From: a bacterium
GTDB lineage: Bacteria; Chloroflexota; Anaerolineae; Epilineales; Epilineaceae
Assembly: GCA_003576755.1 (NCBI GenBank)
Contig: QEVT01000002.1
Location: 346 to 64,345 of the forward strand
Length of the DNA: 64,000 bases
Direction: 5' to 3'
This document shows positions 21,939-59,723 of the stretch, piece by piece (the stretch's first letter is position 1; the number at the start of each line of letters is the position of its first letter). The position numbers were made by a program, and so were the translations under genes. The notes under the pieces are model-generated. The model was not told where the DNA came from, ran no database searches, and was given only the letters and a program-made list of their open reading frames with translations.

Positions 21939-21940
21939 TC

Positions 21941-25128: not shown

Positions 25129-25131
25129 CGC

Positions 25132-26217
25132 ATGTTGACCACGGGCTCCAGCGACTTCCAGGCTCACGAGCGACCGGCGTTCTTCAACGGTCAACGCCTG
25201 CTCGCGTCCGATCTTCAAGCCGTCGAGATCGCCAACCGCGAGATGCGCTGGCTGCACAACCGCTCACTGCACCAGGTGGGCATCGGCAGCGGGCTGGCGA
25301 TCGTCGGCAACAAGGGCGATCGCGTGGTCACCGTCATGGCGGGCTACGCGATCGACGATCTTGGGCGCGAGATCGTGCTAACGGAAGCGGTCCAGCTTGC
25401 GCTCCCGCCGGTCGCCGGCGCCGGAAAGGGTACGCCCGCCATCTACGATCTCACCATCAACTACGCCGATGATGACGACCTGAACGAGGCGGAAACGCGG
25501 GCGACGATCTGCGCGCAGTCCGAGCGTGGCGCCGTGCGATTGCGCGAGGCTCCGGCACTCTGCTGGGTATTGGTCAAGACCGAGCACGAAATCTCCCCCC
25601 TCGTCAAGTCCGGTCGCCGTATCCTCTTGGGCCGCGTGCGCATCCTGAACTGCGAGCTCTTCAGCCTTGAGATCGACCGCCGCCGAAACGCCAGGCCGTC
25701 GAAGCAGCCGTACATCGCGTGCGGCGTCGCCAATCCGGTGGCGTGGACGCCTTGGACGACAAAGAACGACAAAGGAAGCGACATCATTATCGGCTTATGC
25801 GCCGAGATCGACACCTCCACGGCGCGTTTTGGAGCCGTGCCGTGCTACACCGTTCGGATCGACGGCAAGCGGCCGTTGGATTGGCGGGTGAACGCATACG
25901 TGCACTCTGCCTTTGACGGGCCGGTAACCGTTTTCGATCCCCGCTCCGATGGCTTTACGGTTGGAGTGTTGCTGATGGAGATCCCGCCGCCCAGACCTGC
26001 TCAGCCTATAGAAGTCCCGCCCGGCGGTGGGCTCAACGTGGTTCGCGAAGTGGCCATGCCGGCAGCGTCCGCGGCGACACCGGCAGCTACTGGAGCTGCC
26101 GTCGAAGGGGTCTCTATGCCGAGCGCCTCGGTCGCTGCACCGAGCGCTTCGATCACTGATGCACTCCGGCCCGTTTTTTCGCCCTGGTCCGTCGTATGGA
26201 TGGGCGTCGAGGGATGA
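25132..26217 (+). CDS. Fibre/baseplate-periphery candidate, paralogue 2 (361 aa)
   Basis: FFNGQRLLASDLQAVEIANREMRWLHNRSLHQVGIGSGLAIV...GYAIDDLGREIVL has the same N-terminal module. The start lies 3 nt after the upstream stop. Confidence 0.6.
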   Translation: MLTTGSSDFQAHERPAFFNGQRLLASDLQAVEIANREMRWLHNRSLHQVGIGSGLAIVGNKGDRVVTVMAGYAIDDLGREIVLTEAVQLALPPVAGAGKGTPAIYDLTINYADDDDLNEAETRATICAQSERGAVRLREAPALCWVLVKTEHEISPLVKSGRRILLGRVRILNCELFSLEIDRRRNARPSKQPYIACGVANPVAWTPWTTKNDKGSDIIIGLCAEIDTSTARFGAVPCYTVRIDGKRPLDWRVNAYVHSAFDGPVTVFDPRSDGFTVGVLLMEIPPPRPAQPIEVPPGGGLNVVREVAMPAASAATPAATGAAVEGVSMPSASVAAPSASITDALRPVFSPWSVVWMGVEG

Positions 26218-34589: not shown

Positions 34590-34647
34590 GATGGTATCGA
34601 GTGTGATGGACTAAACGGTCAGTCTCGACGGAGGTGCAGGTGCTTCA

Positions 34648-36204: not shown

Positions 36205-36527
36205 GATGTGTTCCTGGGTGTGAGGAGGCCGTGTGAGATATGCGTAGGTCGAGCGCGATCGACGGTGCGGCACGTGCTTGCCGCCGGGCGAGGCACAGGA
36301 TGGCCACAACGTAGGGCGAAGCTTGCCAACCTGTATTGTGGGTGTGAAGTGTCTGTGTCACTGTCTCTTCAATGTCTCTTCGGGCGTCTGCGGCCCACCT
36401 AAACCCTGTGTATCGCCTTGTAGCCGTCGCCGGATTGACAATTGTCGCGGCAAGCCTTCATCATTCCGCCTCGTCAAGCCACTCGGCGCGATGGCGAGCA
36501 CGTCATCCTTCTCACAAGGCGATCGCG

Positions 36528-38510
36528 ATGCGAGTCCTGATCCGAACGTACGACTTCGACGATCTCGGCGGCAGCGGGGCGTCCATGCGCACCGTCGCCG
36601 ACTTCCTCCAGGCGTGCGGCGACGAGACTTGGGCCCCACGCGGCCGCGAGACGCTCGAAAGGCTGCGCGCGTGGTCGCCGGGCGTCGTCTTGGGCCAGCA
36701 GTGGGCGACGGAAGAGGCCAGTATGTGGGCGATCGCCTTGGGCGTTCCCTTTGTGATGTTCGTCCGCGGGCCCGGACAGTACGAGCACTTCATGCCTCAA
36801 TGCGATCTGGTTGTGTTCAACGCTTCGTCGCAGCTCGAACTCGCCCTTCCGGCCATTGGAAGGACGCCGGCCGCGGTGCTCCATCCGCCGGTCCTGCCGG
36901 CAGACTACGCCACCGACGGCGGCGGATCGCACATCACGCTCATTGGAACGGGCGCGCTCAAGGGTGCCGATCGATTCCTGACACTGGCACGGAAATTCCC
37001 AGACCATCCCTTCCTGTGGGTAACCGACGAACCTTCGGAAGCACCTCCTTCCAACGTAGAAGTGTGCCCGAGGACACCGAACATGCGGTCGATCTACGCC
37101 CGCACCAAGCTGCTCGTGATGCCATCGCGAAGCGAATCCTACGGCCGCGTTGCCATCGAAGCGGCCATGAGCGGCATTCCGGTCGTGGCATCGGACCTGC
37201 CGGGCATCCGCGAAGCGACGGCCGGGCACGCGGTCTTGGTCGCGGACGAGCGGGAATGGGTGACCGCAGTACGGAACGTGCTTGCGAACATCGAGCCGCA
37301 TCGCCGCGCGGCGCTTGCGTTGGCGGCGCTCCGTGACCCCTCGGTCGAGCTCGAGGCCCTCCGCAGCCGACTCCAGGCCTTGGTCGATGCCGGCCGCCGT
37401 CGGCCGACGCTGTCGCTGTGTATGACGGTCGCCAACGAGGCGGCGACGCTGGCCAAGGCCGTCGCGTCGGTGCGGGAAGTCGTCGACGAGGTGATCATCG
37501 GCGTCGATACGCGCTCGTCGGACGACACGGCGGCCATCGCGCGCACGCTGGCCACGGATTACTTCGAGTACACCGAATCGAGCCCGCCCGACTTCCGGCG
37601 GATGCGCAACCGCGCCATGGAGCGGGTACCAACCGACTGGGCCATCGTGTTGGATGGCCACGAGTGGATCGAGAACGCCCACCTGATCCGCCCGGCGCTC
37701 GAAACGACGGCTTGGTCCATCGAGATCCGAACGCTGTTCGAGCCCGACGCGAACCGCATCCCGGGTCTCTCGTTCCCCTTCCCGCGCATCCATCGGCGCC
37801 ATGTACGGTTCGTCGGCGCGGCCGTGCACGAGGAGGTCTCGACGCCCGTCGCGCGCCGGTCACGACAGATCGACATCCGTGTCTGGCACGAGCGCAAGCC
37901 GGGCTCCGCCGCGACGACCCGCGGCGCCGAAAAGTCGGGCGCCGAGCTGGACGTGCTCCGGGCGGCATGGCAAGAGCGCAACGACCGCCGCGCGTTGTTC
38001 TACCTGGCCAACGGTCTGCGGGAGTCGGGGCGACTGGAAGATGCGGTCGAGGCATATTCAACCTACCTGGAGGCGCCGAACTTTGAGGAGGAGGGCTGGC
38101 AGGCCAGGCTGTATCTCGCCCGCTGCCACGCGGCCCGCCAAGCTTGGCCCGCGGCGAAGCAGTGCTTCGAGCAGGCGATCCTGGCGTGGCCGGAACGGGC
38201 CGAAGCCGTTATCGGCCTCGGGCATGTGCTCTTGGCGAAGGGAGAAGCGCGTCACGCGGCAGCATGGTTCCGCATGGCGGCCGGGTTGCCTGAACCGTCG
38301 GACTGTCGCCTCTTCGTCGAAGTGCCGGCCTATCGGTGGCAGGCCTGGCACGGCCTGGCGCTGGCACTGGACCGGCTTGGTGACTACGCCGGAGCGCTCG
38401 AGGCCGAGACGGAAGCCAAGGCCCGCGGCGCTGGTGCGTGGGCGGATGTGAACATCGGACGGTGGCGCGCGCTGTCGGGACATGGGACGGGAAACGGGGC
38501 GGGAAGCTGA
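36528..38510 (+). CDS. Three-module glycosyltransferase: GT4 (GT-B) + GT2 (GT-A) + C-terminal TPR repeats
   Basis: The GT4 C-terminal motif is LLVMPSRSESYGRVAIEAAMSGIPVVASDLPGIREA. The GT2 motif is LSLCMTVANEAATLAKAVASVREVVDEVIIGVDTRSSDDTAAIA. The TPR-like tail is ALFYLANGLRESGRLEDAVEAYSTYLE...ARLYLARCH...GLGHVLLAKGEARHAAAWF. The start is taken at MRVLIRTYDF. Confidence 0.8.
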   Translation: MRVLIRTYDFDDLGGSGASMRTVADFLQACGDETWAPRGRETLERLRAWSPGVVLGQQWATEEASMWAIALGVPFVMFVRGPGQYEHFMPQCDLVVFNASSQLELALPAIGRTPAAVLHPPVLPADYATDGGGSHITLIGTGALKGADRFLTLARKFPDHPFLWVTDEPSEAPPSNVEVCPRTPNMRSIYARTKLLVMPSRSESYGRVAIEAAMSGIPVVASDLPGIREATAGHAVLVADEREWVTAVRNVLANIEPHRRAALALAALRDPSVELEALRSRLQALVDAGRRRPTLSLCMTVANEAATLAKAVASVREVVDEVIIGVDTRSSDDTAAIARTLATDYFEYTESSPPDFRRMRNRAMERVPTDWAIVLDGHEWIENAHLIRPALETTAWSIEIRTLFEPDANRIPGLSFPFPRIHRRHVRFVGAAVHEEVSTPVARRSRQIDIRVWHERKPGSAATTRGAEKSGAELDVLRAAWQERNDRRALFYLANGLRESGRLEDAVEAYSTYLEAPNFEEEGWQARLYLARCHAARQAWPAAKQCFEQAILAWPERAEAVIGLGHVLLAKGEARHAAAWFRMAAGLPEPSDCRLFVEVPAYRWQAWHGLALALDRLGDYAGALEAETEAKARGAGAWADVNIGRWRALSGHGTGNGAGS

Positions 38511-42469: not shown

Positions 42470-43642
42470 TCACCCGTCGTCAGACCGCGGCCGCTTGCGC
42501 CGCTCAGCCGCCCGCATCGCCGAGCCGCTCCTCGCCCCGGCGATATCGAGACTCCGCGCGCCATCTTCGACCGCGAGGAAGCGCCGGCCGCCGACCTGCA
42601 TCGCCGTCCACTGGCCTGGCGCCCAGCGCACCCAGGCATCGCTGCCGCCAACTTCGAGGACATCGACCCCATCGTCGCGCTTCAGCACCCCGGTTTTCTC
42701 GAAGTCAGGGCCGGGGCCGCGGTGGACGTTCAGGTTGGCGGCGAGCACCCGGCCGAGCACCTGGCCGTCGGGCGCGACCTCGATCCGGCAAAGCGGCCCG
42801 CTGGGGACCGAGCAGGTCGCCCAGCGATCCTCGCCGACCCGAATCCAGGCATCAGTGCCGCCGACATCGTGGACGGGCAGCCTCCGCCCCAGATCCACGT
42901 CCGTGAGCATCGCCACTTTGTCGTGCTTGATGCTCGGTCCGGTGCGGACGTTGACCGGCGCCTCGACGCGCACCAACAAGCGCGGTGCGACGCGTGCGGG
43001 CGCCGGAGCGCCGCCGGCATAGGCCAGGAAATCCGCCTCGGTGCCGGGAAACCGGTTCACGTCCGCATTGCCATCGATGCCCGGCACCATCTCCTGGCTG
43101 GTGAACTGCCAGAAGCGGTAGGTGCTCCAGTCCAGCGGGAGTCGCGGTTGGCCAGCCTCGGTGTAGTGGGCCACCCATAGATCGTGCTTAGACCAGCGCT
43201 CCGAACGCTCGAGGTTCGTGTTCCAGAAGCTGCCTGCCGTGTAGATGATCGGCCGCTTGTGCCCGGCGGCCTCCAGCCGGTCGAGGCAGCCCAGCGTCCA
43301 CTCCGTCCAGGCCGCCCGCGACATCGGGGCGCCGTCGCCCGGCGTGGGATCGTTCTCGACATCCAGCGCCAGCGGCATTCCCGGCTTCCGGTCGCCCAGC
43401 ACCTCGAGCATGAGATCGACCTGCCTGTCGACCGGATCTGAGGTGCGCATGAAGTGGTACGCCGAAAGCACGAGGCCCGCCGCCTCCGCACCGGCCCAGT
43501 GCTCCGCGAAGCGCCGGTCCTTCCGGTGGCTGCCGTAGGTCGTCCGTACAAACGCGTAGCGGTAGCCCACCGCGGCCACCCGCTGCCAATCGATCGGCTT
43601 CTGGTGGTGCGATACGTCGATGCCCAACACGTGATCCGCCAT
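42470..43642 (-). CDS. GH25 muramidase (lysozyme) with two C-terminal SH3b-like domains; endolysin architecture, no signal peptide
   Basis: The RBS AAGGAGG (reverse complement of cctcctt) precedes ATG 43642. LGIDVSHHQKPIDWQRVAAVGYRYAFVRTTYG...SAYHFMR is the GH25 signature. The C-terminal repeats are VNVRTGPS...WIRV and LNVHRGPG...DAWVRW. Confidence 0.85.
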   Translation of the reverse strand: MADHVLGIDVSHHQKPIDWQRVAAVGYRYAFVRTTYGSHRKDRRFAEHWAGAEAAGLVLSAYHFMRTSDPVDRQVDLMLEVLGDRKPGMPLALDVENDPTPGDGAPMSRAAWTEWTLGCLDRLEAAGHKRPIIYTAGSFWNTNLERSERWSKHDLWVAHYTEAGQPRLPLDWSTYRFWQFTSQEMVPGIDGNADVNRFPGTEADFLAYAGGAPAPARVAPRLLVRVEAPVNVRTGPSIKHDKVAMLTDVDLGRRLPVHDVGGTDAWIRVGEDRWATCSVPSGPLCRIEVAPDGQVLGRVLAANLNVHRGPGPDFEKTGVLKRDDGVDVLEVGGSDAWVRWAPGQWTAMQVGGRRFLAVEDGARSLDIAGARSGSAMRAAERRKRPRSDDG

Positions 43643-43878
43643 GACTGACTGCCTCCTTGTTTCTGGGTGAGCTCGCGACTCAGCGAATACTTGATTCACT
43701 TGAACTCCTGACATCCCTCACCCGAAGAGCGACGAATGTATCAAGTCAGTGTCCTTCACCTTTGCCAAATACCCACCCCTTTCCGGGCCCGCCGTCGCCG
43801 CCCGGAGACAGACGACCGACGACATCGTCCGTCGCTTCCATGACGAACCCGGGCGTGCGACGGATACGCAGGGCCACC

Positions 43879-44076: not shown

Positions 44077-44719
44077 ATGCAGGTGTGCCGGGCGACGGGG
44101 CAGGTCGACGAGGTACTGGAGAGTTGGCAGAACCTCGCGCTGCCCGAGTGCCGTTGCCTGATCCTGGATGCCCGCTACGGGAAGATCCTCACGGACGGCC
44201 AGATCCGCGACGGGGCGGTCTTGATTGCCAAAAGGGTAACGGCACAAGGCAAGCGCTCGGTCTTTGGGGGCGTGGGTTTCGCTCAGCGAGCACGAGGTCC
44301 ACTGGCGGCAGTTCCTCCAGAGCCCGGTGGCGCGAGGCCTGCGCGGACAGTCGTGGATCTTCAGCGATGATCACGCCGGCTTGGGCGCGGCCCGCAAGGC
44401 CGTGTTCGGCGGTGTCCCCTGGCAGCGTTGCCAGTTTCACCTCCAGCAGAATGCCACGGCCTACGTCCCGCGCTTGGAGCAGCGCCCCGAGGTCGCCTCC
44501 AGCATTCGCGCCGTGTTCAATGCCCCCGATCGCACCGAGGCCGAGGCTCGCCTGAAGCGATCGATCGACACGTATGCCACCTCAGCCTCCAAGCTCGCCG
44601 CCTGGATGGAGTCCAACCTCCACGACGGTCTGACCGTTTTTCCGTGCCTATCATACCTTCTCGGATTGGATCTGCCGTCAACGCGACACTCCCATCAGGA
44701 GCCCGCATCATCCAATTAA
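44077..44719 (+). pseudogene. IS256-family (Mutator-type) transposase remnant, frameshifted and truncated at both ends
   Basis: Frame 1 reads LILDARYGKILTDGQIRDGAVLIA. Frame 2 reads SEHEVHWRQFLQSPVARGLRGQSWIFSDDHAGLGAARKAVFGGVPWQRCQFHLQQNA...AVFNAPDRTEAEARL. These are IS256 core motifs split across frames near 44270-44370. Confidence 0.6.
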
Positions 44720-44967
44720 CAGAAGCAGACTTGCTCGAACCCGAAGGGCAGCGACCTGCAGTCAGAGGACCTGCGGCGAAGTCGGTTGGGCGACGGGGAT
44801 GGCGCTGGTGGCCCGAGCGGCGGGGATGTGCGTGCTTGTGACGTCGGTGCGGGTGGGACGCGATGGCGTTGCGGCGACGGGGGCGGGACTGGAGCGGGCG
44901 GGGTTCGAGTCAAGGGCGGGCGGACTCGCCCGCTTGACGATACGATGCGGGGCCGGGCACGGTAGCC

Positions 44968-44996
44968 TTGACAACTCGCGGCATAGGCGCTATGAA
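44968..44996 (+). promoter_or_regulatory. Sigma-70-type promoter candidate for the CHAT-SIR2/STAND operon (near-leaderless transcript)
   Basis: TTGACA (44968-44973), a 17-nt spacer, then TATGAA (44991-44996). The first plausible ATG (45006) lies 10 nt after the -10 element. Confidence 0.35.
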
Positions 44997-45005
44997 TCTC
45001 GCCTC

Positions 45006-47114
45006 ATGCGCGAAGCCATGGTTTCCCGAATCGTTGACCCGCTGACGTTCGACCTGCACATCTCACGACAGGCGGGCGATCAGTATCGCGCTGTAGCGCG
45101 CGCTCTCGGGGGTGAGTTTGAGTCCGACGTGTTCACGCTTCCCCTCACGATACGAGATTGGGTTGGAGCTTCGAGCGGGCATCATAGGGTTCGAGACTTT
45201 ACGGCCAGGTCACCTGCCGAAACGCTGCAGCCCGCTGCGATCGGGGCAAGCCTCTTCAAGACCGTGTTTTCGGGCAGGGTACTGTCCGGATACGACCAGT
45301 GCGTCATCTCGGCGATGCGTGACGATGTGCGGTTGCGCATCTGTTTGCACTTGAACAGAAGTGCACCGGAGATCATGTACTGGCCGTGGGAGTGCCTCCG
45401 CAACGAAGAGGTGAACCGCAGCCTCGCACTTTCGGAGTACTGCTCGATCGTACGGGTTCCGGCAATTGCCGAAGCGATACGTCCTCGGCTGAAGGTGCGC
45501 TCGCCCCTTAAGGTGCTGGTCATGATCGCTAATCCGAAGGGGGTCGCAGCGCTGAACAGCAACGAGGAGTGGGATCAACTTCACGAGGCCACCTCGGATC
45601 TTGTCGACCGTGGCCTGATGGCTTACACCAGACTCGATTCCGCCACACTGCCGACTCTGGCCAAAGCTCTGGATTCAGACAACTTTCACATCCTTCATTA
45701 CATCGGCCATGGCGCGTTCGATGCTCGAACCGGTCAGGCCGACTTGGTCTTGGATCGCGGAGACGGATCGCACCGCTTGATCAGCGGTGACGAGCTCTAC
45801 CCACTCCTGGACAGGAGCCGCTCTCTTCGCTTGCTCGTGCTCAACTCATGCAAGGGTGCCGTAGGTGCGCCGCACGACGCATTCAGCGGTATCGCCCAGA
45901 AGGCAATGCAGGCGGGGCTGCCGGCGGTCGTGGCGATGCAGGACGTGATCTCCGACCGCGCCGCGATCACCTTCGCGAGAGGGCTGTACGGCGGGATAGC
46001 CAGCGGCTTGACCATCGATGGGGCGGTAACCAAGGGTCGGACTGCCATCGTACACGAGCACGATGACTCCGTTGAGTGGGCAGTGCCGGTGCTCTACATG
46101 AGGGATCAAGACGGGCGGCTGTTCGATATGTCCGGTCTTGACGAAGGTGTCAGCGCCACCGCATCGAAGTCGGATCCACGCCCGGAACCGCCGATTGGCG
46201 TGATAGAACGGCTCTTCCGCAGCGGACAAATCGTTCCATTTCTGGGGCCTTTGGCATCTGCCGCACCGACATCGACCGCTCCGGTGGCTACCGAATCCCA
46301 GGATGAGGTGCCGAGTCGGCGAGACCTTGCTTATCGCCTGGCCGATTCGGCATCCTTCCCGGACAAGGACCCACACAGTCGCGGCGATCTCGCCCAGGTC
46401 GCTGCGTACTACGCCGACTTCAACGGGAGGCGTGGCCTGCGGGCGGAGCTGAGGGACGTCTTCCGCCGTACGTATGCCGTGCAACACATCCACCGGCTCT
46501 TGGCGGCGTCCGCGCAGCCGTTGCTGGTCGTGACCACGAACTACGATACGCTCATCGAGCAGGCCTTTCGCGAGGCCGGGCATGATTACGATCTCGTGGT
46601 GTACCCTACCGATCGCAAGGATCTTGCTAACGCGGTGTTGTGGTGGACACCCGGCGCCGCTGAGCCGGAGGCAGTCGCTCCCAACGAGTTGCTTGTTCCC
46701 CTGAACGAGCGCAGCACGATCTTCAAGATGCACGGCTCAGTGGACTTGTCCACAGAGAAGTTCGACTCGTTCGTGGTTACGGAGGACGACAACGTCGAGT
46801 TTCTAGCCCGAGTCAACAGCAACACCGCTGTACCGGCTCAGTTCCTCGATCACTGCCGCGATCGGTCGCTCTTGTTCCTCGGCTGCAGCATTGACGACTG
46901 GCACCTGCGCATCATGCTCAAAGCGTGGAGCCGCCACGTCGAACAGCGCCGCCGCGATGCCAATGCCGACACCATCTCGTCCTGGGCCGTACAGCCCAAG
47001 ACCGGCCTGTCCGAGATCGGCTTGTGGCAACGCTGCCAGGTACAGCCGTTCGATCTGTCCGTCGATGCGTTCGCGGACGCCTTGGCGCGCCGAACAAACG
47101 CCTCGGCCCCATGA
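45006..47114 (+). CDS. CHAT (caspase-like) protease domain fused to a SIR2-like (SIR2_2/ThsA-type) domain
   Basis: CHAT: FHILHYIGHGAF (His codon 45708-45710) and LRLLVLNSCKG (Cys codon 45849-45851), then LPAVVAMQDVISD. SIR2-like: LLVVTTNYDTLIEQAF, IFKMHGSVD, FVVTEDDNVEFL, LLFLGCSIDDWHLRIMLK. The start could be 45006 or 45018. Confidence 0.8.
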   Translation: MREAMVSRIVDPLTFDLHISRQAGDQYRAVARALGGEFESDVFTLPLTIRDWVGASSGHHRVRDFTARSPAETLQPAAIGASLFKTVFSGRVLSGYDQCVISAMRDDVRLRICLHLNRSAPEIMYWPWECLRNEEVNRSLALSEYCSIVRVPAIAEAIRPRLKVRSPLKVLVMIANPKGVAALNSNEEWDQLHEATSDLVDRGLMAYTRLDSATLPTLAKALDSDNFHILHYIGHGAFDARTGQADLVLDRGDGSHRLISGDELYPLLDRSRSLRLLVLNSCKGAVGAPHDAFSGIAQKAMQAGLPAVVAMQDVISDRAAITFARGLYGGIASGLTIDGAVTKGRTAIVHEHDDSVEWAVPVLYMRDQDGRLFDMSGLDEGVSATASKSDPRPEPPIGVIERLFRSGQIVPFLGPLASAAPTSTAPVATESQDEVPSRRDLAYRLADSASFPDKDPHSRGDLAQVAAYYADFNGRRGLRAELRDVFRRTYAVQHIHRLLAASAQPLLVVTTNYDTLIEQAFREAGHDYDLVVYPTDRKDLANAVLWWTPGAAEPEAVAPNELLVPLNERSTIFKMHGSVDLSTEKFDSFVVTEDDNVEFLARVNSNTAVPAQFLDHCRDRSLLFLGCSIDDWHLRIMLKAWSRHVEQRRRDANADTISSWAVQPKTGLSEIGLWQRCQVQPFDLSVDAFADALARRTNASAP

Positions 47115-50100
47115 CCCGGCCATTATGCCCCTACGTCGGCCTCCAACCGTTCACGGAAACGGAACGGGGGTATTTCTTCGGCCGCGAGCGCGAGATCCGT
47201 CTGATCACGGCCAACATGCGCGTCGCTCCGCTGACGGTCCTTTACGGGCACAGCGGTGTTGGCAAGAGCTCGGTGCTCCGTGCCGGCGTCATCCCGGCGC
47301 TTCAGGCACGAGCCCAAACGGCGGTGGTTTACGTCAACGACTGGCGCAGCGACCAGTCCCTCGATGCGCTCAAGCTGGCTTGTGCGGAGGCAGTGGCGGC
47401 ACTTCCCGGCGGCGCCGGTGTTCCCTCCGCAGCAGCGATCGATCTCCCGCTCGACGTCCTCTTGCTCATGTTGTCCGATCGAGGGCGCTTCGAGTTGTTC
47501 ATTGTCCTGGATCAGTTCGAAGACTGGCTGACCTATCGCCCTGCGGAAACTGTGGCTACGACCTTTGACGAAGAGCTGGCGCGCGTCATCAACCGACGGG
47601 ATCCGCACATCGCGATGTTGCTGGCAGTGCGCGCCGACGCGCTGTTCCGCCTCGACCGCTATCGGACACGTATTCCTCGCCTGCTCGAGAACTCACTCCG
47701 GCTGCGGCATCTCAGCGCTGAGGCCGCGGAGAGGGCAATTCGCCAGCCGCTAGCCGTCCACAATGCTCACAACAACGTGCCGATCGCCATCGACGACGCC
47801 GTTGTCGACGCCGTGATCGGCGATGTCACCGCCGCCGAGTTCCGGTTGGGCGAACACATGGAGCGAAGCGTCGACCCCAGCGCGGCCCGTGTCGTCGAGG
47901 CACCGCTCCTGCAGCTCGTGATGACGCGGCTATGGGATGTGGAGGTGGGCGCGGGCTCGACGACGCTACGACTGGAGACGTATGAACGACTCGGGCGCTC
48001 CGTGCAGATCGCCGAGAGCCACCTGGACCACAGCTTGACAGCGTTGCCTGAGCCCGAGCAAGCACTATGCGCCGACATGTTCCAGTGGCTGGTGACCCCG
48101 TCTGGCCACAAGATCGCCCAAACGCTGAGGGATCTGTCCGCTTATAGTGGTAGGCCCGAACCGGACGTGAGCAACCTATTGGCCAAGCTGGGCGATGCGC
48201 GCATCCTCAGGGCCTTGCCGCCGGTTCTGGACGCACGCGGGGAGCGCTACGAGCTCTTTCACGACGTTCTGGCGTCGGGAGTGTTGAGTTGGCGGCACCG
48301 GTTTCTCGCGGCGCAACAGTCCGAGCGGGTGCGTCGCGAGACTGAGGAACGCTTGGCCGAGGAGCGTCGGCAGCGCTGGAAGCGTCGGTTGGACCGGGTT
48401 TATCGCGCCGGTGTTGCGGCGCTCGTCGGCCTGGTGGCATTGGGCATTGCCATCGGCATCGAGCGCGAAGTGCACATCCGGGCCCAGTGGCACGAGCTGA
48501 ACGGACCGCCGGGCGGCACCATCGCCCCGCTGGCGATAGATCCGCAAGTTCCAAATCGGCTATATGTGGCGCTGTATGGCCGCGACGGAGGCGTGTATCG
48601 CACGGACGACGGCGGCCAGTCGTGGGCGCGGCTCCCAGTCGGGCTCGGCCAGAACGTCGCAATGGCCCTGGCTATCGACCCGCGAGATCCGGCGCGCATG
48701 TACCTGGGCACCGCCGGCAACGGGGTGATCGGGACGGTCGACGGCGGCGCGACGTGGTCGCCGTTGAACGATGGGTTGTTCAACCTCAACGTGCTCGATC
48801 TCATGCTGGCAGCAGATGACCCGGAACACATTTTGGTCGTAGCGTACGGAGGGGGCGGCGGTCTGTTCTCCAGCCGTGACCACGGCGAACACTGGTACCG
48901 GGTCAACGACGTCGATACGCAGCAGGCCTTCCGGCTCGTCAGTAGCCCGCGCGATGCCGGCGAGGTCACGGTGTTGTCCGAGCGAGGTGTTTTCCGGTCG
49001 ACGGATGGTGGGACGAGGTTCTACTTGCTCGAAAGCCCCGATGTCCCTTCCGACATCGTGAGAGACTGGGCCGTCGGCAGCGACGGAACGCGGTATGCCA
49101 TTGTGCGCGATGGGAAGTTGTCCCGGAAATCGGTGCACGATCAGGAATGGGTTGACATCCTCCTTCCTGACCGCGATGATTATGGTATTCGGGTGTGGGC
49201 AGACACCCGCAACGAGGGTTGGCTGTACACAGCAGTCCGCTCGGCGTTGGGTTCGACTGCGCTTCTAACGAGTCGGGCGACTGGGCGGATGGGGTCATGG
49301 CAGTCTGCGGGCAACGAGATCGGCCGGACGCCGGGCATTGAACTGCTGACGGACCCCCACCATCCACGCCGGGTGTACTACGGCACCAGCGGCGGGCTCT
49401 ACCACAGCAATGATGGAATGACTGGTTGGGCGCCCATCAGCACCACGCTGGCCAAGTCAACGGTGGGGGCGATCCTTGCGGATCCCGTGGATGGCAAGCG
49501 GATCTGGGCTTCGGTCGAGGGCGGTGTGTATCGAAGCGACAATGGCGGCATCCTGTGGTCGCCGGTGGTCGACGGCCTGTACGCTGCGGCCGTACGCACG
49601 CTGGCCATCAATCCACGCGACCATCGGGACGTGTTTGCCGGTGTATATCGTCCGGGTAACGTGGAATCGATCTTCCGGTTTCACGATGGCGCCGGCCACA
49701 GGGCGTGGACCGGAAGCGCCAACGGGAGCAAGAACGACGATACTCGGGCGCTGCTGTTCCGACCTTCCTCTGTCACGACGATGAGCTTGTTTGCAGGCAC
49801 CTTTGGTAGTGGTGTTTGGCACACTCATGATGGCCACAACTGGGAGGCTCGAAACCAGGGGTTGGCGCGCCTGGATGTGGTTGACCTAGCCGGCGATGCT
49901 CTGAGCGCTGAGACCCTCTATGCCGCCACCGGTGGCGGCGTCTATCGCAGTCAAGACGGCGGCATCAGTTGGATGGCATTCAACGACGGTCTTGAAGATC
50001 TTCAAGTCCATGCGATCGCCGCTGATCAATGGCGCTCGGAGACGGTGTTCGCCGGCACTGCCCGCGGACTGTTCGTATCGCACCAAGGCCGACCGTGGAG

Positions 50101-50371
50101 GCCAGCCAATAATGGCGTGGATCGGACGAACGTCATCGTCGTTCAGCCGGACCCGCGCCAAGCCGACGTAATCTACATTGCAACAGACACGGGCGGAGTC
50201 TACCGGAGTGACGACGGTGGCGAACGTTGGGTTCCGATCTCCCAGACGGCGACCACGTACGCGATCAATTCGCTCACTGTCCCGTTTTCCGGGAGGTATG
50301 CGCTCCTCGCAGGGGCGGCCGAGGCGGGAGTGCACGGCTGGGTGCGACGTTATGCATGGCAAGACCCTTAG
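47111..50371 (+). CDS. STAND-class P-loop NTPase + single TM helix + C-terminal Asp-box (BNR/sortilin/Ycf48-like) beta-propeller
   Basis: ATG at 47111 overlaps the upstream TGA (ATGA). The N-terminus is CPYVGLQPFTETERGYFFGREREI, the Walker A is LYGHSGVGKSSVL and the Walker B is LFIVLDQFEDWL. The hydrophobic helix is AGVAALVGLVALGIAIGI (about nt 48407-48463). About 9-10 S/T-x-D-x-G-x-x-W motifs follow, for example YRTDDGGQSWARL, GTVDGGATWSPL and YRSDDGGERWVPI. Confidence 0.8.
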   Translation: MTRPLCPYVGLQPFTETERGYFFGREREIRLITANMRVAPLTVLYGHSGVGKSSVLRAGVIPALQARAQTAVVYVNDWRSDQSLDALKLACAEAVAALPGGAGVPSAAAIDLPLDVLLLMLSDRGRFELFIVLDQFEDWLTYRPAETVATTFDEELARVINRRDPHIAMLLAVRADALFRLDRYRTRIPRLLENSLRLRHLSAEAAERAIRQPLAVHNAHNNVPIAIDDAVVDAVIGDVTAAEFRLGEHMERSVDPSAARVVEAPLLQLVMTRLWDVEVGAGSTTLRLETYERLGRSVQIAESHLDHSLTALPEPEQALCADMFQWLVTPSGHKIAQTLRDLSAYSGRPEPDVSNLLAKLGDARILRALPPVLDARGERYELFHDVLASGVLSWRHRFLAAQQSERVRRETEERLAEERRQRWKRRLDRVYRAGVAALVGLVALGIAIGIEREVHIRAQWHELNGPPGGTIAPLAIDPQVPNRLYVALYGRDGGVYRTDDGGQSWARLPVGLGQNVAMALAIDPRDPARMYLGTAGNGVIGTVDGGATWSPLNDGLFNLNVLDLMLAADDPEHILVVAYGGGGGLFSSRDHGEHWYRVNDVDTQQAFRLVSSPRDAGEVTVLSERGVFRSTDGGTRFYLLESPDVPSDIVRDWAVGSDGTRYAIVRDGKLSRKSVHDQEWVDILLPDRDDYGIRVWADTRNEGWLYTAVRSALGSTALLTSRATGRMGSWQSAGNEIGRTPGIELLTDPHHPRRVYYGTSGGLYHSNDGMTGWAPISTTLAKSTVGAILADPVDGKRIWASVEGGVYRSDNGGILWSPVVDGLYAAAVRTLAINPRDHRDVFAGVYRPGNVESIFRFHDGAGHRAWTGSANGSKNDDTRALLFRPSSVTTMSLFAGTFGSGVWHTHDGHNWEARNQGLARLDVVDLAGDALSAETLYAATGGGVYRSQDGGISWMAFNDGLEDLQVHAIAADQWRSETVFAGTARGLFVSHQGRPWRPANNGVDRTNVIVVQPDPRQADVIYIATDTGGVYRSDDGGERWVPISQTATTYAINSLTVPFSGRYALLAGAAEAGVHGWVRRYAWQDP

Positions 50372-51868
50372 CATTATAATTGTAGTTTGTAACAAATGCC
50401 GTCGGACATGCAAGGAGGACGACGGCAATGGACCAGATCGAGGTTTGGCAGGCGGGACTGTATGATCTGCTGGCGCGGATGAGCGGGGTGTTCGCCAACA
50501 GGGTAGGACTTGCGCGACTGGGGTTGTACGCGCGGGAACTGCTGGGGCCGGCGGAGTGCAAGAACGGCTGGCAGTTAGCAGAAGAGGCAGGAGAGGCAAC
50601 GCCGTGCGCGATGCAGCAGTTCCTGTTTCGAGGCAACTGGTTTGCGGACGAGCTCAGTCGGGACATGCGACGGTACATCATCGGAGGTTTGGCGACCCGA
50701 TGGGGGTCTTGGTGATCGACGAAACGGGCATTCTCAAGAAGGGAGCCCACTCTATGGGAGTGCGGCGACAATACAGCGGGACGGCAGGGTGGGTGGAGAA
50801 TTGCCAGATCGCGGTGTTGTTGGGCTATGCAACTGCGAAAGGGCGGGCGTTGTTGGATCGGGCGCTGTACCTGCCCAAGAGTTGGGCGGATGACCGAGCC
50901 CGACGCGCCAAGGTCGGTGTGCCGGAGACAGTCGCGTTCAAGACGAAACCGGCCTTGGCGTGGGCGATGGTGGAGCGAGCGCTCGACGAAGGCGTGCCCG
51001 CGAGGCGGGTGGCTGGCGACAGTATCTACGGCGACGATCCGCAGCTCCGTCGCAGCCTGGAAGGTCGACACATTGGCTACGTCATGGCGACCAGCCACAA
51101 CGATGCACGTGTCCCGATCAGCAGGCGTACGCGAGCGCTCTGCGACGTCGTCGCGGGACTCAAGAACGATGACTGGCAGAGCCTGAGCGCGGGCGATTGG
51201 AGCCAAGGACCCCGGTTGTGCGACTGGCAACTGGTGACGCCGTCGACCTCTCTCCTCCCAGCGTGGCGCCGCGGCAACCTCGTCCAGCGCAGCGTCAGTG
51301 ACCCCGCCGAGAGCAAGGTCCACCGTTGCTTCTTTCCAGTGGAAACGTCGCTGGCCACCCCTGTCCGCGTCGCGGGCAGCCGCTGGACAATCGAGACGGA
51401 CATCGAAGAAGCGAAGGGCGAGGTCGGTCTCGACCACTACGAAATGAGGAGCTGGGATGGTTGGCATCGGCACATCAGCCTGGCTCCACTGGCCCACGCC
51501 TTTCTCTCTGTCACCGAAGCGACCAATCACGCGGCGGACTCAGCCGCGACAATAGGGGGGTCCATGCATCGCTGCCAGACACAGTCGATAACGGCGTTCA
51601 AGGTCGGTCGGGGTCTCTTGTGCCCCTGAGCATCCCCGATATCCGGCGTCTGCTTCGTCAGATCCTGTTCACGGTCATCCACCCCGCCGAATGGGTCATC
51701 GCCTGGTCCCGCTGGTGGCGCCGCCACCAAGCCATCGCCCAACGGCACCATCGCTGCTGTCGCACTCTAAGCAGAGGGAACACTACTGTACTTGCCCGTA
51801 CCCAATCGATAGCGCCGATCGTCACTAGTTCTTGCCTCTATCACTTACAGATCATAATCACGGAGTGA
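50372..51868 (+). mobile_element. IS701-family-like insertion sequence (about 1.5 kb), boundaries approximate
   Basis: It carries a DDE transposase with IS701-type motifs. The imperfect terminal inverted repeats are CATTATAATTGTAGTTTGTAAC (50372-50393) and the reverse complement of 51838-51859 (GATTATGATCTGTAAGTGATAG). I found no clear target duplication. Confidence 0.5.
50428..51868 (+). pseudogene. IS701-family transposase split over three reading frames (two -1 frame changes, near 50690 and 51620)
   Basis: Frame a reads MDQIEVWQAGLYDLL...GWQLAEEAGEATPCAMQQFL. Frame b reads GVLVIDETGILKKGAHSMGVRRQYSGTAGWVENCQIAVLLGYA...GDSIYGDD...RWTIETDIEEAKGEVGLDHYEMRSWDGWHRH. Frame c reads IPDIRRLL...WSRWWRRHQAIAQRHH. 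Confidence 0.65.
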
Positions 51869-51873
51869 TCACG

Positions 51874-52833
51874 ATGAATCTGCGACCGATTGGCGAAGTT
51901 GAAGCGGATCGGACCCCGCAGGCAACGACGTGGAGCAGTTCGTACTCTGACTCCGAATCTGTGGAGGATCAAGGACGGCTTGACGCGATGAGGGGCGTCT
52001 CACGGCTTCAGAGAAGATTGGGGCACGACGTTGATGGTCAATCGACAGGACTCCTTGGTTGCCAGATGAGCGATACGTCGCATCGGACAGGATTGATGGC
52101 GACCGTCGTGATCACGGCAATGGCGACACTGTGGCTTGCCAACAACCCAAGCGCGGTGGTCGCCACTCGATTCTTCAGCGTACCGGAACCGAGATCAACG
52201 CGTTCCCCGAACGGCTACATCGGTCCTGAGGGCGGCACGTTCAATGGCGCCGCGCCCAAGCTCGTAGTCGATGTGTCACGGGGTTTTCTCCCCAATGGGG
52301 CGATCTTCTTCGCCTTCCCGACGGATCTCATCCCTGCAGGCACACAGGACGCCAACGGCACGCGCCTGATCGGACAGCCCCACTGCTTCAGCATCTGGGT
52401 CAACGGGCAGATGCCGGAGCAATACCATGCGCCGCTCCGGATTGTGCGTTCGCTGGCAGAGATCAGCCCCAGTCCATCGCTCTCGAATCACGAGCAGTCT
52501 ATGCTGCGATTGGCCTTCTTCGACGACCGAGAGCAGGCATGGTCCGTGATCGGCGGGCAAGACATGTCGAGACGAGGTTCATGGCACATTGAAGCGACGT
52601 TGACGCATCTCGTGCTCAGCCGGAGATGCGATCCCTCCAAGCCGCAGGTCCTCCTGGGCGTGGTACTGGAGTCTGGATCTCCCGCGTTCGATGTTGTGTC
52701 GTTGACAACCAGCCAGCGCGCCGGTTCGAGTCCCCCGCAACAACCGTTGGCCGCAGCGACGTCTGGCCCTCTACCAGCGTACAGGCCTGGCAATCGTGCG
52801 GGCGGAGCACGCGCGGCGATCCTGTTTGAGTAG
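51874..52833 (+). CDS. Hypothetical protein with one predicted membrane anchor; start uncertain (51874 or 52066)
   Basis: The open frame has a hydrophobic stretch GLMATVVITAMATLWLA, followed by a non-repetitive ~240-aa region. No motif is recognised. The 5' end of the ORF overlaps the IS end. Confidence 0.35.
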   Translation: MNLRPIGEVEADRTPQATTWSSSYSDSESVEDQGRLDAMRGVSRLQRRLGHDVDGQSTGLLGCQMSDTSHRTGLMATVVITAMATLWLANNPSAVVATRFFSVPEPRSTRSPNGYIGPEGGTFNGAAPKLVVDVSRGFLPNGAIFFAFPTDLIPAGTQDANGTRLIGQPHCFSIWVNGQMPEQYHAPLRIVRSLAEISPSPSLSNHEQSMLRLAFFDDREQAWSVIGGQDMSRRGSWHIEATLTHLVLSRRCDPSKPQVLLGVVLESGSPAFDVVSLTTSQRAGSSPPQQPLAAATSGPLPAYRPGNRAGGARAAILFE

Positions 52834-59242: not shown

Positions 59243-59723
59243 GCGGCCGGTTCTTCCTGGGCGCCAGCGGCACGCCGGAGCCGGCCGATAGCGACCCAAA
59301 GGTCCATCCAAGGTCCCCCAATCGCGCGTCGGTCGTGTGACGGGGATGGACGATCGCTGCTCCATCAATGAAATAGTATACCACCATCCCGGGCTTCTGC
59401 CTTCCACCGAACTCAGGGCGGTTCACCTTTCTGGAACGCTTCCGAGCACCGTCCCTGCGCCATCTCCTCGGCCACCCCATTCATCCGGCGACCGCCCGAG
59501 CCGGTCGGCATCTCGATCTGATCGCGGCAACCGACCGTTCGCGGCGCCAACGCGACCCGGCCGCCGTGGAACCTCGCGCGAATGCCCGGCCGTCGGCTTC
59601 AGAGAGGGTGACGCCTAGGGGGTGACAAACGCGTTAAGCCGCGCTATAATGGGTGTTCAGGGCAGGTTGCATTCAGGATCCGGGGCGCTGTCGGCCGCGC
59701 CCGGACCCCAAAGGAGGACGCCC

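What the first reader, a model, noticed from the sequence alone, without database searches (positions are those of the whole stretch)
48400..50371. The STAND NTPase is predicted to span the membrane and expose a ~630-aa Asp-box beta-propeller outside the cell
The NTPase and its helical region are followed by a basic stretch (ERRQRWKRRLDRVYR) and then one strongly hydrophobic helix (AGVAALVGLVALGIAIGI, about nt 48407-48463). After it come about 9-10 S/T-x-D-x-G-x-x-W Asp-box motifs spaced ~45-70 aa apart, the sortilin/BNR/Ycf48-like propeller signature. By the positive-inside rule the NTPase would be cytoplasmic and the propeller extracytoplasmic. Characterised antiviral STANDs sense cytoplasmic phage proteins. 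An outward-facing sensor would mean the system monitors an extracellular or envelope cue, such as phage adsorption, a glycan, neighbouring-cell contact, or attack by a contractile injection system like the one encoded 15 kb upstream.
Basis: partly seen in the sequence, partly recalled or inferred. Interest (0 to 1): 0.7.

Follow-up and report, generated by a model that had tools for sequence, protein, structure and literature searches.

The report
Membrane-spanning STAND NTPase with outward double propeller
This Chloroflexi gene encodes an NLR-like ATPase joined by one membrane helix to a large double beta-propeller that almost certainly sits outside the cell; nearly all of its relatives share this membrane-crossing layout and pair with a SIR2 NAD-destroying enzyme, pointing to a little-described class of bacterial surface receptors that may trigger cell shutdown.

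Summary
Gene 47111..50371 (1086 aa) has four parts in order:
- an nSTAND1 NTPase;
- a basic stretch;
- one 18-residue hydrophobic helix (nt 48407-48460);
- a 636-aa Asp-box domain.

Two refinements:
- The domain has 13 Asp-box positions at 42-50 aa spacing. It models confidently as two tandem 7-bladed propellers (GH74-like), not one propeller.
- The membrane helix is not special to this protein. More than 90% of about 250 close nSTAND1 relatives carry a variable-sequence hydrophobic segment, typically about 21 residues, at the same junction. This includes the WD40, TPR and PASTA variants.

Evidence that the propeller faces outward:
- K/R excess lies on the NTPase side in 108 of 118 relatives.
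- Some relatives carry PASTA, an extracytoplasmic domain, after the helix.
- At least 90 of the 119 closest propeller homologues are signal-peptide proteins, and their propeller starts with the same motif that follows the helix here.

The gene overlaps (ATGA) an upstream CHAT-SIR2 gene. A SIR2 gene lies next to the NTPase gene in about 76 of 80 genomes.

A third, membrane-anchored gene is separated from the pair by an IS insertion. No link to the upstream contractile injection system was found.

Verdict: topology well supported computationally. Ligand and biological role unknown. New variant of a known kind.

The parts
44799..47114 (+). Gene 1: CHAT protease fused to a SIR2_2 NADase-type domain (771 aa). 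This is the predicted effector. Its stop codon overlaps the start of gene 2.
   Evidence: Pfam CHAT aa 191-431 (E 6e-27) and SIR2_2 aa 576-735 (E 5e-23). PADLOC gives domain-level hits to ThsA, SIR2 and SAVED_CHAT models only. HYIGHG and NSCKG (CHAT dyad-like) and TTNYD and MHGS (SIR2-like) motifs are visible in the translation. ATGA overlap.
47111..50371 (+). Gene 2: nSTAND1 NTPase, one transmembrane helix, then a double Asp-box beta-propeller (1086 aa). Identical to NCBI hypothetical protein DCC79_00455 (Chloroflexi MAG).
   Evidence: P0001, 100% identity.
47129..48385 (+). nSTAND1 module (aa 7-425): nucleotide-binding domain, helical domain and winged helix. The Walker A motif GVGKSS and the Walker B-like motif DQFE are conserved.
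   Evidence: Pfam PF20703 E 7e-45. Invariant family columns G46, G51, K52, S54, D134, Q135, F136 and R174 are present in the query. AF2 model pLDDT 90.8. Foldseek hits Orc1/Cdc6, ZAR1/NRC and Apaf-1.
48362..48406 (+). Juxtamembrane basic stretch ERRQRWKRRLDRVYR (aa 418-432): 8 K/R in 15 residues, predicted to be on the cytoplasmic side.
   Evidence: It is part of the continuous helix 385-463 in the AF2 model.
48407..48460 (+). Predicted transmembrane helix AGVAALVGLVALGIAIGI (aa 433-450), acting as an internal signal-anchor.
   Evidence: KD19 2.18. An equivalent segment occurs in 118 of 120 and 118 of 128 relatives, with no sequence conservation. K/R on the N side exceeds the C side in 108 of 118.
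48461..50368 (+). Extracytoplasmic domain (aa 451-1086). It has 14 repeats of about 44 aa (13 Asp-box positions, 7 of them canonical) and models as two tandem 7-bladed beta-propellers.
   Evidence: Pfam Sortilin-Vps10, BNR and PSII_BNR.
50428..51629 (+). IS element transposase (DDE_5 family, apparently split over two frames) inserted between gene 2 and gene 3.
   Evidence: Pfam DDE_5 E 6e-37 for 50556..51629. The ORF 50428..50715 in another frame looks transposase-like from its translation alone and was not scanned. In locus L001 the two genes are 8 nt apart.
52066..52833 (+). Gene 3 (about 255 aa from the Met aligned with the L001 homologue). It has an N-terminal membrane anchor (LMATVVITAMATLWLA) followed by a domain of about 200 aa with no Pfam match. 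It is the conserved downstream partner of the propeller-type NTPase.
   Evidence: 31% identity, E 6e-23, to the gene directly after P0002 in L001. Weak similarity to the SH3_3 protein after P0114. No Pfam hit. No other homologue found.
44264..44719 (+). Mutator-family transposase fragment bordering the cassette upstream.
   Evidence: Pfam Transposase_mut E 1e-23, partial.

Best explanation
Proposed anatomy:
- Gene 2 encodes a single-pass membrane receptor of the STAND (NLR-like) class.
- The nSTAND1 ATPase module faces the cytoplasm.
- A long helix runs from the winged-helix domain through a basic juxtamembrane stretch and across the membrane.
- A double 7-bladed Asp-box propeller is displayed on the outer face.
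- A small membrane-anchored protein (gene 3) probably sits beside it.

Proposed mechanism:
1. Binding or clustering of the ectodomain by an envelope-associated cue drives nucleotide-dependent oligomerisation of the cytoplasmic NTPase modules. Candidate cues are a glycan, a cell-wall fragment, or a particle docking at the surface.
2. The oligomer recruits and activates the co-translated CHAT-SIR2 protein.
3. NAD+ is destroyed, and proteins may be cleaved, leading to growth arrest or death.

Shown computationally:
- the domain order;
- conservation of the membrane segment;
- the charge bias;
- the secreted nature of the propeller lineage;
- the conserved SIR2 partner.

Inferred and untested:
- that the ectodomain is the trigger sensor;
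- how the signal crosses the membrane;
- SIR2 NADase activity;
- a defensive role.
For: Evidence that the segment is a transmembrane helix:
- KD19 is 2.18, and 8 K/R precede it against 2 after it.
- An uncharged segment (18-37 residues, median 22) is found at the same junction in 118 of 120 close homologues and 118 of 128 representatives clustered at 50% identity.
- No residue in it is conserved.
- 0 of 223 relatives have a comparable window in the NTPase module.
- AlphaFold2 gives one continuous helix, aa 385-463, with pLDDT above 90 through aa 450.

Evidence for the orientation:
- K/R on the N side exceeds the C side in 108 relatives against 3 (sign test 2e-28).
- Sibling P0018 has nSTAND1 (9-422), a transmembrane segment (440-462) and PASTA (522-585). 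PASTA is an extracytoplasmic peptidoglycan-binding domain according to established knowledge.
- At least 90 of the 119 best propeller homologues begin with a signal peptide. These are fused to FN3, PKD, IPT/TIG and DUF11 domains.
- Their propeller starts 'W-T-x-x-G-P-x-G-G-x-V-x-x-L-A-I-D-P'. The same motif follows the helix here as 'W-H-E-L-N-G-P-P-G-G-T-I-A-P-L-A-I-D-P'.
- The fold's best structural matches are GH74 enzymes, which are secreted enzymes according to established knowledge. The periplasmic double-propeller sensors of Bacteroides hybrid two-component systems appear among weaker matches (ranks 31, 32, 40, 47; E about 1e-18, TM only about 0.35-0.38).

Evidence for the system:
- Gene 1 and gene 2 overlap by ATGA.
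- The same SIR2 (with or without CHAT) to nSTAND1 order is seen for P0002, P0006, P0114, P0018 and P0069.
- A SIR2 gene is adjacent in about 76 of 80 species-level genomes.
- Gene 3 homologues directly follow the propeller-type gene.
Against: - No experimental topology exists, and no dedicated predictor (DeepTMHMM, TOPCONS) was available.
- The query's helix is at the short, Ala/Gly-rich end of the family. It has 18 uncharged residues and a simple Hessa-scale sum of about +1.7 kcal/mol, with scale values taken from memory.
- Most relatives carry WD40 repeats after the helix (103 of 192). WD40 is more familiar as a cytoplasmic domain, so the model requires many exported WD40 propellers.
- The NTPase partner matches no PADLOC or NCBIfam model.
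- Flanking genes in 42 loci show only sparse defence-gene hits, so a defence role is not established.
- In this window an IS separates gene 3 from the pair, so the local copy may be impaired.
Confidence: 0.6

Rival explanations
1. The topology is right, but the propeller is not the trigger sensor. It tethers or positions the complex at the envelope, for example by binding wall polysaccharide. Activation comes from something else, such as membrane perturbation, gene 3, or a cytoplasmic signal read by the NTPase or CHAT module.
For: - The domains found after the helix in relatives include wall-binding types: PASTA, and SH3_3 in the gene 3 position.
- The propeller is no more diverged than the NTPase between the query and P0002 (about 40% against 38%). 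There is therefore no sign of arms-race diversification.
- The short relatives have only about 170 aa after the helix.
Against: - In STAND proteins the C-terminal repeat domain is the sensor in every characterised case (established knowledge; Kaur 2020, PMC7159879).
- The region after the helix is swapped among WD40, TPR, BNR, PASTA and pYEATS types on a constant NTPase. That is the pattern expected of a specificity module.
Confidence: 0.17
2. It is a membrane receptor for developmental or social signalling, or for programmed cell death, in a filamentous bacterium. Examples would be cell-cell contact or kin recognition. It would not be an anti-phage system.
For: - The CHAT domain's best NCBIfam match is HetF, a cyanobacterial cell-differentiation protease, though far below the cutoff.
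- Kaur et al. link such NTPase conflict systems to a multicellular habit (PMC7159879).
- Defence-gene enrichment around 42 loci is weak.
Against: - The SIR2_2 partner is closest to ThsA, Dsr2 and PDC-S25 SIR2 domains of defence systems.
- The cassette is IS-flanked with low GC here.
- It is patchily distributed across phyla, with tandem duplicates, which is typical of mobile defence genes.
Confidence: 0.13
3. The hydrophobic segment does not cross the membrane. It would be a buried or oligomerisation helix, or a peripheral anchor, and the propeller would be cytoplasmic like the sensors of known Avs and NACHT proteins.
For: - The query's segment is only 18 residues and rich in Ala and Gly.
- Some Aromatoleum and Thauera relatives have weaker segments (KD 1.4-1.5), and one lacks it.
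- WD40 sensors are cytoplasmic in Apaf-1-like proteins.
Against: - Sequence is not conserved but hydrophobicity is, with a typical segment length of about 21 residues.
- The charge asymmetry is strong.
- PASTA siblings exist.
- The propeller homologues are secreted.
- A 79-residue continuous helix cannot be buried.
Confidence: 0.07

Closest known systems
nSTAND1 family of STAND NTPases (Pfam PF20703; named by Kaur, Iyer, Burroughs and Aravind 2021, PMC8195603)
   Same: The NTPase module is a clear member: 154.7 bits, all invariant motifs present, and an NBD-HD-WHD fold. The family is described as the central switch of multi-domain conflict systems with variable C-terminal repeats.
   Different: The texts I could search (PMC8195603, PMC7159879, PMC10907252) do not describe a transmembrane helix between nSTAND1 and its C-terminal domain. 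They also do not describe a dedicated SIR2 partner gene. Here both are near-universal in the clade around this protein.
Characterised antiviral STANDs: Avs1-5/AVAST, bNACHT, and SIR2-STAND fusions such as Avs5
   Same: Tripartite logic of effector, NOD switch and C-terminal sensor. A SIR2 NADase serves as effector (fused in Avs5, a separate gene here).
   Different: Those proteins are soluble and bind phage proteins in the cytoplasm. Here a membrane helix separates the switch from the sensor, the sensor belongs to a secreted-protein lineage, and the effector is a separate polypeptide. No PADLOC Avs or NACHT model is matched.
Bacterial NACHT proteins with TM-type C-terminal regions (Kibby et al., bioRxiv 10.1101/2022.07.19.500537) and DGR-diversified NACHT-TM-CLec targets of Thiohalocapsa (Dore et al., PMC10907252)
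   Same: These are prior predictions that some bacterial STANDs read intramembrane or periplasmic signals.
   Different: They belong to a different NTPase family (NACHT). They mostly have multiple TM regions or C-type lectin sensors. They have no large Asp-box or WD40 ectodomain and no SIR2 partner, and none has been tested.
Receptor Ser/Thr kinases PknB (PASTA) and PknD (NHL propeller), and Bacteroides hybrid two-component sensors with periplasmic double propellers (PDB 4a2l, 3v9f, 3ott)
   Same: The layout is the same: a cytoplasmic signalling module, one membrane helix, and an extracytoplasmic PASTA or beta-propeller sensor. The HTCS sensors appear among the Foldseek matches, though weakly (E about 1e-18, TM about 0.35-0.38).
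   Different: The output module is a kinase or two-component module, not an oligomerising STAND ATPase with a NADase partner. There is no homology in the cytoplasmic part.
GH74 xyloglucanases, Sortilin/Vps10 and Ycf48 (Asp-box/BNR propellers)
   Same: Asp-box repeats are shared. The GH74-type tandem two-by-seven-blade arrangement is the best structural match (E about 1e-28, TM about 0.6).
   Different: Identity to GH74 is only 16-18%, and the catalytic Asp pair was not checked. Sortilin is a single 10-bladed propeller and Ycf48 a single 7-bladed one (both from established knowledge). The Ycf48 NCBIfam score is 28.5 against a cutoff of 326.

Membership tests
nSTAND1 (PF20703) STAND NTPase | Profile match above the curated threshold over the whole domain | tested here: met
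   154.7 bits against a cutoff of 27.1; profile positions 1-373 of 379 matched at aa 7-425.
nSTAND1 (PF20703) STAND NTPase | Intact P-loop (GxxGxGKS) and Walker B region; NBD-helical-winged helix architecture | tested here: met
   Family-invariant G46, G51, K52, S54, D134, Q135, F136 and R174 are present. AF2 pLDDT 90.8. Foldseek hits Orc1/Cdc6, plant NLR resistosomes and Apaf-1.
Single-pass (N-in/C-out) membrane protein | One hydrophobic helix long enough to span the bilayer, with positive residues on the cytoplasmic side | tested here: met
   The 18-residue uncharged run has KD19 2.18, with 8 K/R before and 2 after. The equivalent segment in 118 of 120 relatives is 18-37 residues long (median 22), and the K/R bias runs 108 to 3. 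No dedicated predictor or experiment was available.
Single-pass (N-in/C-out) membrane protein | Experimental localisation of the C-terminal domain outside the cytoplasm | not testable with these tools
   Needs PhoA/LacZ/GFP fusions or protease shaving.
BNR/Asp-box, Sortilin-Vps10-type beta-propeller | Repeated S/T-x-D-x-G-x-x-W motifs in a propeller fold; profile above threshold | tested here: met
   Sortilin-Vps10 72.9 bits (cutoff 33) and BNR 32.8 (cutoff 27). 13 in-register motifs. All-beta model with pLDDT 90.
GH74 xyloglucanase | Two catalytic Asp residues in the cleft between the two propellers | not tested
   There is only fold-level similarity (16-18% identity). No structure-based residue mapping was possible.
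Ycf48/HCF136 photosystem II assembly factor | Equivalog-level profile score; single 7-bladed propeller | tested here: not met
   NCBIfam PRK13684 28.5 bits against a cutoff of 326. The model is a double propeller.
Avs/AVAST or bNACHT defence systems | Match to the family's NTPase models | tested here: not met
   PADLOC gives no Avs or NACHT hit. The only hit is NsnB at E 0.008, and there are none for homologues.
Thoeris ThsA / DSR SIR2 effectors (for gene 1) | SIR2 domain plus the family's own partner domain (SLOG for ThsA; long C-terminal sensor for Dsr) | tested here: not met
   Only the SIR2 core aligns: ThsA model positions 56-129 of 478, and Dsr2 at E 0.007. The N-terminal half is CHAT instead.
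CHAT (caspase-like) protease (gene 1) | Profile above threshold and a His/Cys dyad | tested here: met
   95.2 bits against a cutoff of 24. HYIGHG and LNSCKG motifs are seen in the translation. Assigning them as the dyad rests on my knowledge of the family, not on an alignment made here.

The most novel reading that the evidence does not exclude
The clade around this protein may be a widespread, undescribed class of bacterial transmembrane NLR-like receptors.
- It comprises hundreds of 50%-identity clusters and occurs in at least 351 species-level genomes of Chloroflexota, Acidobacteriota, Geobacter, Aromatoleum/Thauera and others.
- The STAND switch would read an extracytoplasmic WD40, BNR, PASTA or TPR ectodomain through a single membrane helix.
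- It would fire a dedicated SIR2 NADase.

That would be surface surveillance of phage docking, wall damage or neighbouring cells, rather than the cytoplasmic sensing known for all characterised STANDs.
Probability: 0.4. Interest if true: 0.85.

Novelty: new variant of a known kind. Interest (0 to 1): 0.66.

Why it matters
- Every experimentally characterised bacterial STAND/NLR-like immune protein senses its trigger inside the cell. In animals and plants, surface sensing is done by separate receptor classes (TLRs, RLKs).
- A STAND ATPase wired through the membrane to an external propeller would merge the two logics. It raises a concrete mechanistic question: how does an oligomerisation switch read a signal across a single helix?
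- The trait is clade-wide and present in cultivable strains: Geobacter hydrogenophilus DSM 13691, Aromatoleum tolulyticum ATCC 51758, Aromatoleum evansii KB740 and Thauera aminoaromatica S2. The question is therefore directly testable.
- It would also flag many 'WD40 repeat protein' annotations as probable exported domains.

Tried and rejected
- **PADLOC and NCBIfam** were scanned for the NTPase and for typical homologues. No system-level match was found.
- **Gene 3** was searched for homologues. Only the protein itself was returned, so its family stays undefined.
- **IS ends** were sought as inverted repeats. None was convincing, so the IS boundaries are not defined.
- **Defence-island test** on 130 flanking ORFs from 42 loci gave only scattered defence hits: TIR, PDC-S35, DRT, mads and phospholipase. 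The 'pVip' hits are probably generic radical SAM proteins. The result is inconclusive.
- **The WD40-type locus downstream gene** (L005 11608-12426) is unrelated to gene 3.
- **Link to the contractile injection system** was rejected as unsupported. The baseplate and tail genes lie at about 18-28 kb, separated from the cassette by collagen-like, glycosyltransferase and lysozyme genes and a transposase fragment.
- **Sortilin-like single 10-blade propeller and Ycf48 identity** were rejected.
- **Literature searches** for a described transmembrane helix in nSTAND1 found none. Related general statements exist for NACHT and for DGR targets.


Full report
**What is there**

The finding lies in ORF 46925..50371. 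The likely start is ATG 47111, because it overlaps the TGA stop of the upstream gene (ccATGAcc) and the family-conserved N-terminus (M-x-x-x-x-C-P-Y-V-G-L-Q-P) begins there. The 1086-aa product is identical to an NCBI hypothetical protein from a Chloroflexi metagenome-assembled genome (P0001).

Pfam gives nSTAND1 over aa 7-425 (E 7e-45). It gives Sortilin-Vps10, BNR and PSII_BNR in the C-terminal part.

Between the two lie the basic stretch ERRQRWKRRLDRVYR (aa 418-432) and the uncharged run AGVAALVGLVALGIAIGI (aa 433-450, nt 48407-48460). The run's 19-residue Kyte-Doolittle mean is 2.18, the only window of 2.0 or more in the protein.

**The propeller**

The strict Asp-box pattern finds 8 hits, 7 of them in register. 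Alignment with 73 homologues shows a repeat of about 44 residues. It has 14 conserved Trp positions at 42-50 aa spacing, which means 13 Asp-box positions (7 canonical, 6 degenerate) plus an N-terminal Trp strand.

AlphaFold2 on that alignment gave an all-beta model with pLDDT 90 and pTM 0.86. Foldseek against the PDB puts GH74 xyloglucanases first (E about 1e-28, TM about 0.6). That GH74 enzymes are two tandem seven-bladed propellers is from my own knowledge. Other double propellers follow in the list (Gemin5; Aip1, titled 'two seven-bladed beta-propeller domains'). The periplasmic sensor domains of Bacteroides hybrid two-component systems appear as weaker matches (E about 1e-18, TM about 0.35-0.38).

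The domain is therefore a double propeller, not a single sortilin-like or Ycf48-like one. The Ycf48 equivalog model scores 28.5 bits against a cutoff of 326. Whether the GH74 catalytic aspartates are present was not tested.

**Is the hydrophobic segment a real membrane helix?**

The most informative result is comparative.
- Of the 120 best homologues of the whole protein, 118 have an uncharged hydrophobic segment directly after the NTPase module. It is 18-37 residues long (median 22) with a median KD of 2.3.
- Of 128 further full-length representatives clustered at 50% identity, 118 have it.
- Of 83 genes from species-level genomes, 71 pass the same threshold. Nine of the other twelve were inspected. 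Eight have a weaker uncharged segment of 19-20 residues at the same place, and one (L059) lacks it. Two of the remaining three carry their hydrophobic segments only after aa 700, the pattern seen in the kinase-containing variants. L015 could not be scored.
- The NTPase is strongly conserved up to R-Y-E-I-F-H-D-V-L-A-x-A-I-L-D-W-R. No residue of the hydrophobic segment is conserved. Conserved hydrophobicity and typical length without conserved sequence is what a lipid-facing helix shows. A packed core helix would not.
- As a control, none of 223 relatives has a KD window of 2.0 or more in the NTPase module, while 149 have one at the junction. Only 4 of 119 soluble propeller homologues have one anywhere.
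- AlphaFold2 of aa 1-480 (pLDDT 90.8) gives the NBD-helical-winged-helix module followed by a single continuous helix, aa 385-463, that contains the basic stretch and the hydrophobic run. I had no coordinates to measure contacts, but a 79-residue helix cannot be buried in that module.

**Orientation**

- Lys plus Arg in the 15 residues before the segment exceed those after it in 108 relatives, against 3 the other way (2e-28). In the query the counts are 8 against 2.
- The NTPase needs cytoplasmic nucleotide, and the protein has no N-terminal signal peptide.
- Sibling P0018 has nSTAND1 (9-422), the hydrophobic segment (440-462) and then a PASTA domain (522-585). PASTA is known only from the extracytoplasmic parts of penicillin-binding proteins and PknB-type kinases (established knowledge).
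- The propeller has thousands of homologues. The 119 best are proteins of 600-1100 aa fused to FN3, PKD, IPT/TIG, DUF11 and similar surface domains. At least 90 of them start with a signal-peptide-like N-terminus.
- In those proteins the propeller begins right after the signal peptide with W-T-x-x-G-P-x-G-G-x-V-x-x-L-A-I-D-P. In the query the same motif (W-H-E-L-N-G-P-P-G-G-T-I-A-P-L-A-I-D-P) begins nine residues after the helix. The helix therefore occupies the place of the signal peptide, as an uncleaved signal-anchor.

I rate N-in/C-out topology at about 0.85. What is missing is a dedicated predictor and any experiment. The query's helix is at the short, Ala/Gly-rich end of the family range.

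They carry the same membrane segment.

Among 192 relatives with one or two hydrophobic segments, the region after the helix breaks down as follows:

| Region after the helix | Count |
|---|---|
| WD40 | 103 |
| pYEATS-like | 18 |
| Asp-box propeller | 4 |
| PASTA | 3 |
| TPR | 2 |
| Unclassified | 62 |

A further group has nSTAND1, then a protein kinase, then four or five membrane segments. The membrane-spanning layout is thus a property of the clade, and the Asp-box propeller is a rare sensor choice.

**The system**

- Gene 1 (44799..47114) encodes CHAT plus SIR2_2 and is translationally coupled to gene 2.
- The three other Asp-box-type genes have the same upstream partner. P0002 has a SIR2_2 gene with a 4-nt overlap. 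P0006 has a 788-aa CHAT-SIR2_2 gene with an overlap. P0114 has a SIR2_2 gene.
- The PASTA-type and a Dechloromonas WD40-type gene have it too.
- In 80 loci from species-level genomes a SIR2_2 gene lies next to the NTPase gene on the same strand in about 76. It is usually directly upstream and often overlapping. It is downstream in three loci, and four loci have tandem pairs.
- The CHAT fusion is unusual. The minimal partner is a SIR2 protein of about 313 aa.
- The SIR2 domain resembles those of ThsA, Dsr2 and PDC-S25 only at domain level. The NTPase has no model in PADLOC 2.0 or NCBIfam.

**A third gene**

In L001 a gene starts 8 nt after the propeller-type NTPase gene. Its product is 31% identical (E 6e-23) to window ORF 51832..52833 from the Met at 52066. 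Both begin with a membrane anchor followed by a domain with no Pfam match.

The genes in the same position after P0006 and P0114 carry a bacterial SH3 domain. The N-terminal part of the P0114 one is weakly similar to the L001 and window gene 3 products. The P0006 gene could not be compared because no DNA was held for that contig.

In the window a DDE_5 transposase gene (50428..51629) sits between gene 2 and gene 3. Only 50556..51629 was scanned. The reading of 50428..50715 as its N-terminal, frameshifted part rests on the translation alone. The local operon has therefore been split by an IS insertion. A Mutator transposase fragment lies upstream, and the region has lower GC (0.62-0.64) than its surroundings.

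**How it most likely works**

The part shown computationally is a cytoplasmic STAND switch, one membrane helix, an extracytoplasmic double propeller with a co-encoded membrane-anchored partner, and a SIR2 (here CHAT-SIR2) partner.

The rest is inferred by analogy with characterised STANDs and with single-pass receptor kinases:
1. A cue at the envelope binds or clusters the ectodomains.
2. This promotes ATP-dependent oligomerisation of the NTPase modules.
3. The oligomer activates SIR2, which degrades NAD+.
4. The CHAT protease adds or gates a proteolytic step.

PASTA and SH3 domains in sibling systems hint at peptidoglycan-related cues. The GH74-like cleft hints at a glycan. Neither hint is tested.

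A defence role is plausible from four observations: the SIR2 type, the patchy distribution across phyla, the tandem duplications, and the IS-flanked low-GC context. It is not established. Only a few of 130 flanking ORFs from 42 loci hit defence models.

**Relation to what is known**

- nSTAND1 was named by Kaur et al. 2021 as a central NTPase of conflict systems. The accessible texts do not mention a membrane helix or a SIR2 partner for it.
- The general idea that some bacterial STANDs read membrane or periplasmic signals has been stated for NACHT proteins with TM-type C-termini. It has also been stated for DGR-diversified NACHT-TM-lectin targets.
- TM-plus-PASTA arrangements are noted for iSTAND ternary systems.
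- The 2026 survey of STAND sensors does not discuss extracytoplasmic sensors.

I therefore file this as a new variant of a known kind. It is a member of nSTAND1 with an ectodomain drawn from a secreted-protein lineage. It works like a single-pass receptor rather than like Avs or bNACHT proteins.

**Link to the contractile injection system**

This is not supported. Baseplate J and Tail_P2_I genes lie at about 18-28 kb. They are separated from the cassette by collagen-like, glycosyltransferase and GH25 lysozyme genes and a transposase fragment. The cassette occurs without such neighbours elsewhere.

Noticed in passing
window 50372-52065: A DDE_5-family IS transposase (ORFs 50428..50715 and 50556..51629, apparently in two frames) is inserted between the NTPase gene and its conserved downstream partner gene. 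In the related locus L001 these two genes are only 8 nt apart. No clear terminal inverted repeats were found.
   Followed up: partly
window 52066-52833; L001 4074-4691; L002 5348-6247: A small membrane-anchored protein with no Pfam match follows all four Asp-box-type nSTAND1 genes examined. The versions after P0006 and P0114 carry an SH3_3 domain. It is absent after the WD40-type gene of L005. It may be an extracytoplasmic co-receptor.
   Followed up: partly
P0041-P0118 (about 50 proteins of about 885 aa), e.g. P0055: A sister architecture has nSTAND1 (aa 13-397), a Ser/Thr protein kinase (aa 451-647) and 4-5 membrane segments at the C-terminus. It is common in Anaerolineae metagenomes.
   Followed up: no
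L025, L029, L067, L075: Tandem copies in one locus: two SIR2-nSTAND1 pairs in L025, L029 and L075, and two adjacent nSTAND1 genes after a single SIR2 gene in L067. Found in Pyrinomonadaceae and Anaerolineae genomes.
   Followed up: no
flanks of L006-L048 (alignment A4): Genes recur next to SIR2-nSTAND1 pairs among the flanks of 42 loci: hexapeptide-repeat/LbH proteins (13 of 130 ORFs), Zn_ribbon_HMPTM (8), clostripain-type Peptidase_C11 (7) and radical SAM (7). Which loci carry them was not resolved. They may be extra components of a subclade.
   Followed up: no
window 18120-28475: A contractile-injection-system or phage-tail-like cluster. It contains two Baseplate_J proteins, one of 1272 aa with a macroglobulin MG4 domain, and a 759-aa protein that combines NHL repeats with Tail_P2_I.
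   Followed up: partly
window 32712-36309 (- strand): Two adjacent large collagen-triple-helix-repeat proteins (625 and 553 aa). They are followed by a 712-aa protein that combines GT4, GT2 and TPR domains and includes a 'GT4-conflict' Pfam hit (36372-38510).
   Followed up: no
window 42470-43714 (- strand): A GH25 lysozyme fused to a bacterial SH3 domain lies just upstream of the transposase fragment that borders the cassette.
   Followed up: no
window 1537-6246 and 59622-63995: Very long ORFs (1569 aa and at least 1457 aa) in high-GC stretches with strong AT skew (GC up to 0.74). They were not examined.
   Followed up: no
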